Of a stretch of 47,631 nucleotides of DNA, positions 30,570 to 34,396 are shown one piece after another. Under the pieces are notes generated by a model, which saw nothing but the letters and a program-made list of their open reading frames with translations, made no database searches and had not been told where the DNA came from. The stretch comes from a virus (Duplodnaviria; Caudoviricetes): IMG/VR virus record IMGVR_UViG_3300031949_000064, positions 1-47,631 of that record; one strand, given 5' to 3'. Position 1 is the first letter of the stretch; each line of letters begins with the position of its first letter. The position numbers and the translations under genes are program-made.

Positions 30570-31004
30570 TCACACCCTGCCCTTATTCTCGATCATCCTC
30601 GAAATCGAATCCTCAAAGCCCTTGAGCGCCGTCTCAATCGGACCGCCCTCAGGGCCAGACACTTCGAGCTTCGAAGCTGAGTCGAGTCGCAAGATAATCG
30701 CGGCCGCCCTGATCTTCTCGTCGTGCGTTGCGTTCGGATCCATGAGGCATGCTTTGAGCGCCGAGTCTGCGAGTTGGCGTCTGAGTGGCCCGCCTACGCG
30801 TATGGCGATGTCGGAAAAGCGTGAGAACTTTGTTTCGATATCGGCTTCTCTGTCCGCGTCTCCCTGGTTCCTCCATGCGGTGTATGTGGATCGGTGGATG
30901 CCGAGGTGGGCGCACGCGTCGACGATGCTCCAGAACGATTCCGCTGTCTCGTCGAGCTTGGTGAGCAGCTGATCTGTGAGCTTGCTGGGGCGTCCTGCGG
31001 CCAT
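30570..31004 (-). CDS. terS: Terminase small subunit
   Basis: GRPSKLT, HTH-like segment and KLEVSGPEGGPI; upstream of terL. Confidence 0.8.
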   Translation of the reverse strand: MAAGRPSKLTDQLLTKLDETAESFWSIVDACAHLGIHRSTYTAWRNQGDADREADIETKFSRFSDIAIRVGGPLRRQLADSALKACLMDPNATHDEKIRAAAIILRLDSASKLEVSGPEGGPIETALKGFEDSISRMIENKGRV

Positions 31005-31118
31005 TGGGTAATCGTATCAGCGCTGGCCGGATGCGGATAGTTTTGGTCCGAGGGTGTTTCATGGACGAACCCCGCCGTCGCGGGTTCTCCCCGCGCACCA
31101 TGCCTTCGGACCAAACTT

Positions 31119-31469
31119 TTAGAAGCCGAGTATCCAGACTGTGGTGCGGGCGAATGCTGCGATAAGCAGGATGGTGAGTCCGATGGCGAGCGTGGCTCCC
31201 ATGATGTCGAATGAGAGTCGGGTGAGCGGGTCGGAGTAGCGTGCCTTGCCGACGTTGAGGGTTCCTACTTCGCCGCATTCGACGCCGCCGCAGCACTTGC
31301 CGTCGCGGTCACAGTTTGACGGGTTGAGTTCGGTTGTGTCAGGTGTCATTGAATAGTCTCCTAAATCAGCCGCGCCGGCTGATGGTTCCGGCCGGTCGTC
31401 GTATACCTCTACCTTGCAGTCCGGCGTCACCCCTTCGTGCCAACTGCCTGTATTTATTTCAGACTCCAT
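31119..31469 (-). CDS. Hypothetical protein with C-terminal TM helix
   Basis: AGGAGG RBS before MESEINT. Confidence 0.55.
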   Translation of the reverse strand: MESEINTGSWHEGVTPDCKVEVYDDRPEPSAGAADLGDYSMTPDTTELNPSNCDRDGKCCGGVECGEVGTLNVGKARYSDPLTRLSFDIMGATLAIGLTILLIAAFARTTVWILGF

Positions 31470-31596
31470 CGCCCAACCTCCTGGCTGGGTGATTGAGCGC
31501 ATGCGCCACGACTTGCCTGCGGTTGTTCGCTGCGAGGGCTTTGCGTGTTTTTCCGGCGGCGCGGGCTTGGGCTCGTTTCGGGTTCATGGGGAGATC

Positions 31597-32646
31597 CTAC
31601 GGTGCGTCGCGGACGCTATGAGCGTAGACCCATAAGTCTTTCAGTAGTTGCTTACCAACTATCCTCAGAGCGTCGTTGTGCTTGTGCCCATCTGTCCATT
31701 CTCGGTTTGCGGTTACTTCGCGGCGTTGCTCATATGTCGATCGGTAGGGACGCCGCGCTTCGCCTTCGCCCCACACTCCATCTTCTCGCCATCGGTCTAC
31801 GCTGCGCCCGCCTTCCTTGACCGCCGATTCTGATATTAGGTGCACGAGCATTTTCATGGTGGGCGAACCACACGACTGAGCATCTTGCTGGCTCATGCCT
31901 TTGCGGCGAACTCGTGTTGCGTCGCCGTGCCCGCAGAGTTGTCTGAGTTGGCTAACGGTTCTATATCGATACGATCCGTCTGGTAGTTCTGCGACAGCGG
32001 GGTCGCCCAAGTGCCCAAGTAGGCGCCCAAGCAGGCGCACGCCTACGCCGGGACTATGTTTGATGAAATCGCCGAAGGGGCCTTTCTTGATTTGTTTGTC
32101 CAGCCATTTACCTAGCATCGCCTCTGATTCAATGACATGTTCGAATGATTGTTGTAGGACTTCTTGCTCGACGGACGCCCTGTTAATTCGGCTTGAGATG
32201 CCCATGCGTATTTTTTGTGTGTCGTAGAGGGTTTCACTGAATACGCGCAGGGCCATCCAGTATTGTTGACCACCCAGCAGAATCGGATCGGGATCGGTTT
32301 TCGCAACTCTGATGGCATCTGCTGGGTGGTCAATGGTTTCGCCAGCCGAGGAAGGATTGGAGTTCGTCGCCCGAATGGGCTGGCAAAGGGTCACGGCACC
32401 CGCCGCGTGGTTGGGTTTCGGCTTCTTGATGGGGTGCCGCAAAGTTTCGGGAGTCGTAGATGCAATGGTGTTCGTTGCGTTTCTAGACTCCCCCCCCGCC
32501 GTTGGATCCATGGTTTTCGACGCTGCACTGGGCGGAGGTAAATTTTCGGGCAGCGTGCGCACTTTGGTTTTCGCCGCTACTTTGGCTGCCCGCCTCACCG
32601 GAGTATCGCTGGGTTTCGCAACCACTTTGGGTGAGGAAGCTTTCAT
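31597..32646 (-). CDS. tasA: TasA-like Nop-domain RNA-guided DNA-binding protein (no nuclease domain); folded part starts near ATG 32256
   Basis: Coiled coil, then PGVG..LLGRLLG..GDP, RTVSQL...CG.G, RRKG, PYRSTYE.RR and GHKHNDALR..K.LLKDLW (IS110 C-terminal/Nop-like); no DEDD/RuvC region; adjacent guide array. Confidence 0.8.
   Translation of the reverse strand: MKASSPKVVAKPSDTPVRRAAKVAAKTKVRTLPENLPPPSAASKTMDPTAGGESRNATNTIASTTPETLRHPIKKPKPNHAAGAVTLCQPIRATNSNPSSAGETIDHPADAIRVAKTDPDPILLGGQQYWMALRVFSETLYDTQKIRMGISSRINRASVEQEVLQQSFEHVIESEAMLGKWLDKQIKKGPFGDFIKHSPGVGVRLLGRLLGHLGDPAVAELPDGSYRYRTVSQLRQLCGHGDATRVRRKGMSQQDAQSCGSPTMKMLVHLISESAVKEGGRSVDRWREDGVWGEGEARRPYRSTYEQRREVTANREWTDGHKHNDALRIVGKQLLKDLWVYAHSVRDAP
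32266..32636 (-). ncRNA. TIGR-like stem-loop guide-RNA array, 7 dual-spacer units
   Basis: Each unit is stem-CCA-9 nt-CGAANNCC(A/G)-9 nt-CG-stem (CTA instead of CCA in unit 4); central motifs start at 32618, 32573, 32519, 32474, 32420, 32366, 32303. Confidence 0.85.
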
Positions 32647-33122
32647 ACAGCAACACCGACTTCCAGGTCGCTCAACGTGCGAGCGCCAGCTTTCTGTATC
32701 TCTTGGATAGCTCGTAGGTGCCGGTCAATAGTTTCTTGAATGCCTTGCACGCGCTGGTGCATGTGCGCTATTCGCTCTCGGTGCTGATCGACGGTGAGGT
32801 CGCAGAAGCGTACGCGCTCTCCGGTACTGGGGATGGTGACGTGGCTCTGAGCGTAATCGGTTCGCGCCAATATGCGAGGGTCCGTCGTAGAGTCGTAGTG
32901 TTCTGTGACACTATTTCGTTGCCTGTCAGCGCCATTGATATCGGCTACAACACGGCGGATGCCCGTCTGGGCCGCGAGCAACACCAAGTCCCTATTGAGC
33001 GTGGCGACGATTGCTGCGCATGCTTCTGCTACCTCGTTGTCATCACTAGGCCAATGAGACATCTTGTCGAGGTGCCCACGGACAATGTTCTTGAGCGTTG
33101 CGGCGGGTTCGTGCATCGTCAT
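32643..33122 (-). CDS. Hypothetical protein coupled to the tas ORF
   Basis: ATGA overlap with the tas ORF start; start at ATG 33122 or 33116 after GGAG; C-terminal coiled coil. Confidence 0.7.
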   Translation of the reverse strand: MTMHEPAATLKNIVRGHLDKMSHWPSDDNEVAEACAAIVATLNRDLVLLAAQTGIRRVVADINGADRQRNSVTEHYDSTTDPRILARTDYAQSHVTIPSTGERVRFCDLTVDQHRERIAHMHQRVQGIQETIDRHLRAIQEIQKAGARTLSDLEVGVAV

Positions 33123-33227
33123 CTCCAAGGTTTGTGCGGGTTGCCGTGCAAGATTAGCTGCCGCGCTGTCCATTGGAAATGCCTTGAGGAATGATAGGCC
33201 CGATGCGGACCCTGGGCTTGGCCGTAC

Positions 33228-33896
33228 TCAAGTGGAGGGCCTCGTTTCTGGGCAGATCAGTCGATGGTTGAACCGGTTGGCGACGGCGTTCTTGTCGCCC
33301 ATGAACTCGCAAAGAATCCTATCAGGACCAGGTGTCTTGCGGTATGCCTTCCATGGTCCCCACTTGCGTGTGCGCTCGTCGAGGATCACGGGCCTGACAC
33401 CGTCGGAGCGTCCTTGGTGGTAGCACACCATGACCGCCTGGCCGCAGACGCCGCACGTCGCGGGGCCGCTAGGCGTTCCGGTCCAGTCATGGTAGTCGTC
33501 TACATTGCCGTCGGGGCCGACGAGTTCGACGAGTTCGCGCAGGCTCATTGGTACGTCGGGGCCTGACTTCGCCATGAGTGGCGGTTCGACTTTGAGATAG
33601 TTGAATCCACCAACGGCTCCAACTGCCCTGCCGATCGGCTGGCCATCCCACTCCTCCTCTGGCGGGCAGAACAATCCTTCGGATGCCCGACACATGTGCG
33701 GCGCGTGACCCTTCCCTGAGCGCACGGGCTTCCCAGCCTTGGTGAGACGCAGTCGTGCGGATCCGTCCTTCTGAATCTCGTATCGGCCTTGCTCGTGCGG
33801 CTCGATGTTGAGCACGAGTGTGTGCCCGGTGCCGATGTCGAGGGCGCGCACGGTCGGCGTGTTACAGATTGAGCAGTGTCCAGGGCGGGCGGTCAC
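33228..33896 (-). CDS. Hypothetical protein with two CxxC modules
   Basis: CSIC...H.C and CGVC...H...C; GTGA overlap. Confidence 0.6.
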   Translation of the reverse strand: MTARPGHCSICNTPTVRALDIGTGHTLVLNIEPHEQGRYEIQKDGSARLRLTKAGKPVRSGKGHAPHMCRASEGLFCPPEEEWDGQPIGRAVGAVGGFNYLKVEPPLMAKSGPDVPMSLRELVELVGPDGNVDDYHDWTGTPSGPATCGVCGQAVMVCYHQGRSDGVRPVILDERTRKWGPWKAYRKTPGPDRILCEFMGDKNAVANRFNHRLICPETRPST

Positions 33897-34150
33897 GGAA
33901 AGTCAACCTCCAACTCATTCATACGGTGCAGCATTGACAGTGCGTCGCCGAGGCTGATCTCGCCCGCTTCGATGTCGATGGCTATGCCGATGAGCATGCG
34001 TAGCGCGTCGGCTCGCTTCTCGGCGGGGAACTCCACGAGGTACTTGTGCGCCAAGAACGCTCTGGCCGTGGCGATAACTTCGGTTGCGAGCGTACTCAAT
34101 CGAACCTCCCCATTCGTCCGCGACACCGCCGGCAACGCATGCGTCGCCAC
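33893..34150 (-). CDS. Hypothetical protein
   Basis: Packed co-oriented ORF. Confidence 0.5.
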   Translation of the reverse strand: MATHALPAVSRTNGEVRLSTLATEVIATARAFLAHKYLVEFPAEKRADALRMLIGIAIDIEAGEISLGDALSMLHRMNELEVDFP

Positions 34151-34396
34151 GGCACGGCGAGCTGGAACACGCGGTGATTGAATAGGTCCTGGTCGGTGGG
34201 CGCGGGGCAGCCGAATAGGCGACAGGCGAGGCGTCGCAGAATCATAGCGGACCTACGATCCATCGCTTTACCACGGCAGGCAATGGCAAGTGCCAGCGCA
34301 ATGCAATCCTCCTGGCCAGACACGGCGAGCTGGCACAGGTGATGACGTGACGGTCGCAGGCGTGGCATTTATGTGCCGGCAGAGAATTCCTCCGAC

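What the first reader, a model, noticed from the sequence alone, without database searches (positions are those of the whole stretch)
32256..32646. The guide array is dual-coding: it lies inside the tas reading frame with frame-preserving spacing
Seen: the array is stop-free in the tas frame from ATG 32646, which overlaps the upstream stop (ATGA). Unit spacings are 45, 54, 45, 54, 54 and 63 nt, all multiples of 9 despite unrelated stems and linkers, so every central motif reads in one phase (AKP, AKT, SKT, TNT, PKP, TNS, AKT). No clear RBS precedes the alternative ATG 32256, which sits just past a 16-bp stem. Inference: the array is translated as a ~130-aa disordered leader, and guide excision would cut the tas mRNA, giving negative autoregulation.
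Basis: partly seen in the sequence, partly recalled or inferred. Interest (0 to 1): 0.85.

Follow-up and report, generated by a model that had tools for sequence, protein, structure and literature searches.

The report
Guide-RNA array translated inside tasA gene
A soil phage gene for a small RNA-guided DNA-binding protein (TasA) runs in frame through seven of its own guide-RNA hairpins, so the same DNA likely encodes both the guides and a floppy protein leader; a 2026 preprint already describes this layout, and relatives add that such guides avoid stop codons and one arginine-rich codon register.

Summary
Observation confirmed: seven stem-loop TIGR units lie stop-free and in one phase inside a 349-codon tasA ORF whose ATG overlaps the upstream stop. 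Alone that is weak (4.4% of shuffles), but relatives make translation likely. Of 34 homologous arrays lacking their own start codon, 33 are stop-free in the tas frame, and 30 of 33 start at the stop of the same partner gene; arrays followed by their own start are open in 4 of 14. ATG 32256 lies inside the first predicted helix, after a conserved aromatic residue. The 3n/9n spacing is not the family rule (60 of 124 spacings are 3n, 10 are 9n). Instead, translated units never put box C in codon position 1 (0 of 265), the register that reads 28% arginine, and spacers are depleted of in-frame stops, Arg and Cys. Autoregulation is untested: no RNA data, and 8 of 14 non-coding-array loci work without an embedded unit. 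Intragenic stem-loop arrays are in a September 2026 preprint, and this scan found the layout before on other DNA. Gordonia phages Spooky and LonelyBoi carry the same arrangement and allow a bench test.

The parts
32643..33173 (-). Conserved partner gene of unknown function (176 aa from the first ATG; ATG 33116 has the better SD); its TGA overlaps the tasA ATG
   Evidence: ORF; family found upstream of tasA in 51 of 53 array-bearing loci; SD scan; no significant Pfam, PHROG or PDB match
32643..32646 (-). ATGA start/stop overlap (likely translational coupling)
   Evidence: Sequence; same overlap, in frame and open to the core, in 30 of 33 homologs without an own start and 0 of 13 with one
31597..32646 (-). 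tasA ORF, 349 aa
   Evidence: profile hits TaTasR 9MTY E 2e-13 and TasH E 1e-10; Foldseek top 10 all TasR or TasH
32272..32646 (-). Array-encoded leader, residues 1-125, predicted disordered
   Evidence: No secondary structure, block pLDDT 39-54 for residues 1-120; codon usage best in the tas frame, -0.04 against -0.26 and -0.17
31600..32271 (-). Nop-domain core, residues 126-349; first helix 126-156
32593..32636 (-). tigRNA unit 1 with 6-bp stem
32548..32591 (-). tigRNA unit 2 with stem
32493..32538 (-). tigRNA unit 3 with stem (stem related to unit 1)
32449..32492 (-). tigRNA unit 4 with stem (first box C is CTA; stem related to unit 2)
32393..32440 (-). tigRNA unit 5 with 8-bp stem
32341..32384 (-). 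tigRNA unit 6 with stem
32266..32333 (-). tigRNA unit 7 with 16-bp stem; its 3' arm holds the SD-like GGGTGGT (32275-32269)
32254..32259 (-). W130-M131: conserved aromatic position followed by the alternative ATG 32256, inside helix 1
   Evidence: W, Y or F in 38 of 47 clusters at the W130 column; M at the next column in 1 of 47, the window itself; helix 126-156

Best explanation
The seven guide hairpins lie in frame inside the tasA gene and are likely translated, from the ATG that overlaps the partner gene's stop, as a predicted disordered 125-residue leader, while the same stretch of RNA would also be cut into guide RNAs. Ribosomes finishing the partner gene likely re-initiate at 32646 and read through the array into the Nop core (inferred from the conserved overlap). 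Selection keeps the frame usable by three visible rules in relatives: no in-frame stop, no unit in the register that reads box C as Pro and box D as Arg (about 28% Arg), and fewer Arg and Cys codons in spacers; unit spacing itself is free. Guides are likely released at the stem bases by a host RNase, with TasA binding and protecting each hairpin (borrowed from other stem-loop systems). Every such cut falls between the start codon and the Nop domain, so a given transcript would serve either as TasA message or as guide precursor. If TasA binding blocks ribosomes or promotes the cut, this gives negative feedback (about 40%); otherwise it is a fixed split.
For: Shown in sequence: open frame, ATGA overlap, seven canonical units. 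Comparative: 33 of 34 arrays with no start codon between array and core are stop-free in the tas frame, against 12 and 5 of 34 in the other frames and 4 of 14 arrays followed by an own start. Partner stop coupled to an open tas start in 30 of 33 against 0 of 13. Phase-0 units: 0 of 165 in such 5' arrays, 0 of 67 inside the core, 0 of 19 inside the partner ORF, 0 of 14 in Spooky and LonelyBoi, against 24 of 70 and 24 of 52 in non-coding arrays; stop avoidance alone predicts about 31%. In 309 distinct spacers, in-frame stops 0 against 27 expected, Arg 67 against 116, Cys 11 against 37, Asp/Glu 64 against 27. The two classes are interspersed on the tree, at least 8-10 changes forced by well-supported branches. 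M131 is inside helix 1 and not conserved. Intragenic tigRNAs were recovered by small-RNA sequencing for BlTasA (bioRxiv 10.64898/2026.09.09.750476, section 11).
Against: No direct evidence of transcription, translation or processing at this locus. The window alone is stop-free in 4.4% of shuffles. ATG 32256 has the stronger anti-SD match in a crude scan, although badly spaced and paired, and GTG 32394 has a weak one. The window's protein is a long branch (1.42) with no close relative, so family statistics are carried over from homologs at under 40% identity. 8 of 14 loci with non-coding arrays have no detected unit in the tas CDS, so embedding is not needed. CTT occurs in only 49 of 124 linkers of coding arrays. 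Relatives share ancestry, so the counts overstate independence; 61 stem families lie behind the 235 coding units. The Arg explanation of the phase rule is an inference.
Confidence: 0.8

Rival explanations
1. The embedding is kept because it builds a TasA-dependent negative feedback loop: TasA binds box C/D units on its own message, stalls ribosomes or triggers the cut, and so balances protein against guides. Compatible with dual coding; it differs in why the layout is kept.
For: All cuts at stem bases would fall between start and core. TaTasR is needed for tigRNA accumulation in a dual-repeat system (PMC12045711 passage). Precedent for a box C/D-type protein repressing its own message: L7Ae (PMC5539422 abstract). 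Units also sit inside the core in 32 of 73 loci.
Against: 8 of 14 non-coding-array loci have no unit in the tas CDS, and the layout is lost repeatedly (Morrissey has the ATGA, a stop in the array and a new SD start). Stem-loop Tas proteins lack the Y/H processing loop and maturation is thought to need a host RNase; the C-terminal tail here is only 10 residues after W339.
Confidence: 0.35
2. The array is translated only because units land in tolerant, disordered places of a compact coupled operon; reading through it saves an RBS and may shield the RNA from premature termination. Any effect on TasA level is a by-product.
For: Units occur in the tas leader, in core loops, in the C-terminal tail and in the partner gene; leader length simply scales with unit number, 39 to 170 aa for 2 to 8 units; coding and non-coding forms interchange.
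Against: Does not by itself explain why a unit so often sits directly on the first codons of the core (last unit starts 29-50 nt before the core in 32 of 35 loci). The shielding idea rests on recalled knowledge of Rho; the paper search gave nothing specific that I read (listing only).
Confidence: 0.4
3. TasA starts at ATG 32256 (219 aa); the array is an untranslated region whose open frame is chance or a relic.
For: 4.4% chance of an open frame; GGGTGGT upstream of 32256; loci with non-coding arrays are common, 14 of 53 and about 80 mycobacteriophage records; the 219-aa piece holds almost all of the Nop fold.
Against: The SD-like stretch is 11-12 nt away and paired; a start at M131 would drop the conserved aromatic residue and the first turn of helix 1; own starts in the 14 non-coding loci all lie at or before the first core column; 0 of 13 of them keep an open coupled start, whereas the window does; all seven units avoid phase 0.
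Confidence: 0.08
4. Guides come from separate short transcripts made by promoters inside the partner or tas gene, so the tas message is not consumed.
For: The preprint states this cannot be excluded for intragenic tigRNAs.
Against: The array begins 12 nt after the partner stop, leaving no intergenic room; hairpins in the full message would be the same substrate.
Confidence: 0.15
5. The 9-nt period of the spacings reflects a real mechanism, for example unit building in 9-nt steps.
For: All six spacings are 9n; 1 in 730 if independent given 3n.
Against: Only three distinct values, from a doublet duplication and presence or absence of one linker; a shared divisor above 3 arises in 3-9% of simulated draws; relatives show 10 of 124, with modes at 57-60.
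Confidence: 0.08

Closest known systems
Intragenic stem-loop TIGR arrays in tas genes, e.g. Bifidobacterium longum BlTasA (Xu et al., bioRxiv 10.64898/2026.09.09.750476)
   Same: [quoted passage not shown] Box C CCA/CTA and box D CG are in its motif set.
   Different: Its tested example is embedded in the wedge loop; here the whole array is N-terminal. In the parts I read it gives no test of translation, no codon-phase rule, no spacer amino-acid filter, no coupled upstream partner gene and no explicit autoregulation claim.
Stem-loop TIGR-TasA of Faure et al. 2025 (PMC12045711) and PlTasA (bioRxiv 10.64898/2026.08.11.744272)
   Same: Nuclease-less Nop-domain effector; hairpin units with two spacers between box C and box D.
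   Different: That array is 13 units in three subarrays separated by intergenic DNA; the operon partner described there is TasParB with dual-repeat arrays, and the partner here matches no ParB family.
TnpB processing its own mRNA into omegaRNA (PMC10278001)
   Same: Guide RNA made from the effector's own message.
   Different: One guide at the 3' end, cut by the effector's RuvC; here seven guides at the 5' end of a nuclease-less protein, where a cut would separate start codon from core.
L7Ae translational autoregulation in archaea (PMC5539422)
   Same: A box C/D RNP protein represses its own message by binding its RNA motif there (abstract); the model for the untested feedback step.
   Different: K-turn in a 5' UTR, not guides in a coding region; works-like analogy only.
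Gordonia phages Spooky gp49-gp50 and LonelyBoi gp45-gp46
   Same: Same partner gene, ATGA overlap, stop-free array in the annotated long ORF, units only in phases 1 and 2.
   Different: Spacings are multiples of neither 9 nor always 3 (e.g. 57, 59, 64); annotated as hypothetical proteins.

Membership tests
Stem-loop TIGR-TasA | Effector with a Tas-type Nop domain | tested here: met
   Profile hits 9MTY (E 2.3e-13) and TasH (E 1.4e-10); Foldseek ranks 1-10 are TasR or TasH, E 4e-7 to 4e-5, ahead of IS110 recombinases
Stem-loop TIGR-TasA | No N-terminal RuvC or HNH nuclease | tested here: met
   Residues 1-125 have no predicted secondary structure; no Pfam family
Stem-loop TIGR-TasA | Tandem units box C - 9 nt - box D - loop - box C - 9 nt - box D | tested here: met
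   7 units; motifs within the published set except one CCG
Stem-loop TIGR-TasA | Palindromic flanks closing each unit | tested here: met
   Closing pairs at probability 0.94-1.0 for all 7 units; folding z -4.7, 0 of 100 shuffles as stable
Stem-loop TIGR-TasA | CUU at the stem base (processing mark) | tested here: inconclusive
   CTT before units 1, 5 and 6; ATT before 3 and 7; no linker before 2 and 4; 49 of 124 linkers in relatives
Stem-loop TIGR-TasA | Array expressed and processed into Tas-bound tigRNAs | not testable with these tools
   No RNA run listed
Stem-loop TIGR-TasA | Guide-directed DNA binding or repression | not testable with these tools
   Needs a bench assay; host genome not held
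Intragenic (dual-coding) TIGR arrays | Units inside the tas ORF without breaking the frame, in a disordered region | tested here: met
   comparative support
Intragenic (dual-coding) TIGR arrays | Actual translation of the array | not testable with these tools
   Only indirect signs of selection; needs Ribo-seq or MS
Dual-repeat TIGR arrays | Conserved edge repeats between units, about 36-nt units | tested here: not met
   Inter-unit stretches are 13-31 nt variable palindromic arms
IS110 transposase | N-terminal RuvC (DEDD) domain joined to the Nop-like domain | tested here: not met
   PHROG 4285 'transposase' covers residues 132-347 only; N-terminus unstructured; IS621 and ISCro4 rank below Tas

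The most novel reading that the evidence does not exclude
An actinophage clade of two-gene TIGR operons (unknown partner plus TasA, joined by an ATGA overlap) writes its guide arrays under a second, protein-level code: units are barred from one codon register and spacers are filtered for the amino acids they spell, so the targetable repertoire is shaped by translation; TasA then titrates its own message by capturing the hairpins, switching each transcript from mRNA to guide precursor.
Probability: 0.3. Interest if true: 0.72.

Novelty: new member of a known kind. Interest (0 to 1): 0.45.

Why it matters
The layout itself is known from a preprint, which leaves open whether intragenic arrays are translated from the same message and whether that couples guide maturation to Tas synthesis. 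The family data give sequence-level evidence of translation (coupled start, stop depletion in spacers, exclusion of one codon register) and show that natural guides in such arrays are filtered by the genetic code, which constrains models of the unknown spacer-acquisition step and the design of single-transcript TIGR tools. Cultured phages exist in both states (Spooky and LonelyBoi coding; Buttons, Greg, Barriga, EnzoK, Omega non-coding; Morrissey in between), so the open question can be tested directly on laboratory hosts.

Tried and rejected
3n spacing as the family's frame-keeping rule: rejected. 9n period as a family feature: not seen in relatives; a search for close relatives by DNA pattern gave 8 viral loci, none with a tas or partner gene, and the partner protein found no confirmed viral locus by exact seeds. 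Stop avoidance as the only cause of the phase rule: predicts about 31% phase-0 units, 0 seen. Rare CGA codons as the cause: not tested formally; CGA is frequent in the window's own tas core. Self-targeting of the phage genome: four spacer-pair arrangements for each of 7 units gave no match with 2 or fewer mismatches; the one 3-mismatch hit is the array itself. RNA evidence: no RNA holder listed; the one DNA run, which may be the source of this DNA, covers the stretch in one contig without differences or indels. Promoter and terminator scan: 0 sigma-70-like sites and no minus-strand terminator in 31000-34200, uninformative for a likely actinobacterial host. Rfam: no family. Partner protein identity: no Pfam, PHROG, PDB-sequence or Atlas assignment; best VIA-align Z 5.2, within background; viral fold matches only to uncharacterised phage proteins such as Omega Q854P2. 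No TasA-partner complex prediction was obtained, so binding is open. Supplement search of PMC12045711 for in-frame, coding sequence and stem-loop terms gave 0 hits; bioRxiv supplements could not be seen and may list this locus or a phase analysis. The tree is the quick tree, because the careful search did not finish.

Full report
1. Observation. On the minus strand, seven units of the form CCA-9nt-CG-4nt-CCA-9nt-CG start at 32630, 32585, 32531, 32486, 32432, 32378 and 32315, with spacings 45, 54, 45, 54, 54 and 63 and one codon phase. Each is closed by a stem predicted at pair probabilities of 0.94 or more; the region folds better than all 100 shuffles, z -4.7. The ORF 32646-31597 (349 aa) spans them without a stop, and its ATG overlaps the TGA of the 176-aa ORF 33173-32643. 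The other two minus frames hold 4 and 2 stops. Taken alone this is modest: 4.4% of 5000 dinucleotide shuffles leave this frame open. Stems and linkers are related: units 1-2 and 3-4 look like a 99-nt doublet, and 45 is 54 without a linker. A stretch complementary to the anti-SD does lie before ATG 32256 and scores better than the one before ATG 32646, but it is 11-12 nt away and inside the 16-bp stem (the anti-SD string is recalled).

2. What it is. The contig is a phage genome (portal and terminase genes). The C-terminal 220 residues are a Tas-type Nop domain: a profile of 36 homologs hits TaTasR and TasH, and the ten best fold matches are TasR or TasH structures. The model has no secondary structure for residues 1-125 and a first helix at 126-156, so there is no nuclease domain and M131 lies inside the helix. 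The motifs fall within the published set for stem-loop arrays. This is a stem-loop TIGR-TasA locus. Related loci come from Acidimicrobiia genomes and actinophages, which suggests an actinobacterial host (inference).

3. Family test of translation. I fetched 135 loci (1, 49, 80 and 5; the metagenome scan returned the best 80 of 135 relatives), merged them into 81 clusters at 90% identity, dropped 8 with an unclear core start, and kept the 53 of 73 that have a 5' array of two or more units. I classed them without using stops or spacing: B, no ATG/GTG/TTG between last unit and core (35, with the window); A, an own start with SD there (14); 4 ambiguous. Without the window, 33 of 34 B arrays are stop-free in the tas frame, against 12 and 5 of 34 in the other frames (1 stop against 34 and 58); A arrays are open in 4 of 14 (Fisher p 1.5e-6). 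The exception, L059, has its own start before the last unit. A homolog of the upstream gene precedes the array in 51 of 53 loci. Its stop overlaps an in-frame start that is open to the core in 30 of 33 B loci, 3 of 4 ambiguous ones and 0 of 13 A loci. The column of W130 is W, Y or F in 38 of 47 clusters, and only the window has M in the next column (one further protein, P0043 of 53, has M there). A and B are interspersed on a quick tree, with 8-10 changes forced by well-supported branches. The window's leader also has its best codon-usage score in the tas frame.

4. Spacing is not the rule; phase is. In B arrays 60 of 124 spacings are multiples of 3 and 10 are multiples of 9, with modes at 57-60; only 1 of 30 arrays with three or more units is all 3n. 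Units switch freely between the phases where box C starts at codon position 2 or 3 (69 switches), but none starts at position 1: 0 of 165 in B arrays, 0 of 67 inside the core, 0 of 19 inside the partner ORF when read in the partner's frame (the one phase-0 unit lay before the first start codon), and 0 of 14 in two cultured phages examined afterwards. Non-coding units use that phase in 24 of 70 and 24 of 52 cases. By stem family, 0 of 61 coding families and 36 of 71 non-coding families include phase 0. A filter against stops alone would leave about 31%. Read in phase 0, a unit with its stems gives 28% Arg, 19% Pro and a net charge of +4.6 per 17 residues, against +1.0 and -0.3 in the phases used; I infer selection against a polybasic Arg/Pro-rich leader. 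The spacers agree: among 309 distinct spacers of B arrays (L059 and the window left out), position-matched counts give 0 in-frame stops against 27 expected, Arg 67 against 116, Cys 11 against 37 and Asp/Glu 64 against 27. The window's all-3n spacing is thus somewhat unusual (1-5% by family rates), and its 9n pattern rests on three distinct values; a shared divisor above 3 arises in 3-9% of simulated draws. No close relative was found to test it.

5. Cultured examples. Gordonia phages Spooky and LonelyBoi have the partner gene, the ATGA overlap and an open array. Mycobacteriophages Buttons, Greg, Barriga, EnzoK and Omega, Arthrobacter phage Talia1610 and Rhodococcus phage Peregrin have an own start and in-frame stops (no units of this motif were detected in Barriga, Talia1610 and Peregrin, and only 1-2 in Buttons, Greg and EnzoK). 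Gordonia phage Morrissey keeps the ATGA but has one stop in the array and a new SD start before the last unit. I examined 10 of the 82-90 phage records hit.

6. Mechanism. Shown: the anatomy and the family-wide signs of selection on the reading frame. Inferred: re-initiation at 32646 after the partner gene, and a 349-aa TasA with a disordered leader. Borrowed from other systems: expression and processing of the hairpins; the preprint finds ends near a CUU at the stem base, notes that stem-loop Tas proteins lack the Y/H processing loop, and leaves open whether Tas, host RNases or other factors cut, and whether intragenic guides come from the tas message or from internal promoters. If the message is cut, the start codon is separated from the core, so a transcript is either mRNA or guide precursor. 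That becomes negative feedback only if TasA promotes the cut or blocks ribosomes; I put this near 40%. Against feedback as the reason for the layout: 8 of 14 A loci have no unit in the tas CDS and the state flips often. No spacer pair matches the phage's own genome within 2 mismatches, so there is no sign of DNA-level self-repression.

7. Relation to what is known. Xu et al. (bioRxiv 10.64898/2026.09.09.750476; I read parts 1-2 of 7, sections 11 and 13, and term passages; supplements not seen) already report stem-loop arrays inside tas coding sequences, also at the 5' end, in disordered regions, and suggest a link between tigRNA maturation and Tas translation. Faure et al. (PMC12045711; passages, section 6 and a supplement search) define the system. 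I also saw passages of 10.64898/2026.08.11.744272, PMC10278001 and 10.64898/2026.09.22.753630, and the abstract of PMC5539422. I found no mention of a codon-phase rule, a spacer amino-acid filter, this partner gene or translational coupling in those texts or in four library searches; the library lacks most subscription papers. This scan reported the same layout before on other genomes, one note also with units in a partner gene; a look-up for the phase rule returned nothing.

8. Verdict. A real and probably translated intragenic TIGR array: a new member of a recently described kind. The spacing argument fails, autoregulation is plausible but untested, and the added value lies in the family-level evidence, the phase rule, the coupled partner gene and the cultured test systems. 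Interest 0.45.

Noticed in passing
window 32643-33173 (-) and 51 of 53 related loci: Uncharacterised 150-200 aa helical partner gene directly upstream of tasA in nearly every locus, often carrying TIGR units in its own central linker or N-terminus (17 loci). No family or fold assigned; not ParB-like by these searches.
   Followed up: partly
L144-L146, L153 (phages Buttons, Greg, Barriga, EnzoK): About 80 Mycobacterium smegmatis phage records carry the partner-gap-tasA cassette, annotated as hypothetical or transposase; in the four opened, a Cas4-family or exonuclease gene follows tasA directly or one gene later. A candidate for the unknown spacer-acquisition step, or just a neighbour.
   Followed up: no
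L149:1117-1470 (Gordonia phage Morrissey): Apparent transition state: ATGA overlap kept, one TAG in the array, new SD and ATG before the last unit; units still avoid phase 0.
   Followed up: partly
Class B loci, e.g. L006, L013, L098, L132: The last unit sits at a near-fixed place 29-50 nt before the core in 32 of 35 loci, and its 3' stem arm often encodes the residues just before the conserved W.
   Followed up: partly
window 32582-32556 and 32483-32457 (-): Unit 2 spacers resemble each other (both begin AAGT), so the joined target would be near-palindromic like an operator; unit 4 spacers can pair with each other.
   Followed up: no
L013:1597-1990: Array built from a repeated three-unit block of 177 nt (3n) whose inner spacings are 58, 60 and 59: duplication in 3n blocks keeps the frame without 3n unit spacing.
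   Followed up: no
L150:542-760, 2337-2880 (phage Omega); L002:1098-1310: Further unit clusters upstream of the partner gene and downstream of tasA, some far from tas.
   Followed up: no
Coding versus non-coding units, 73 loci: Units of non-standard length are rarer in coding arrays (5 of 161 and 1 of 67) than in non-coding ones (13 of 122).
   Followed up: no
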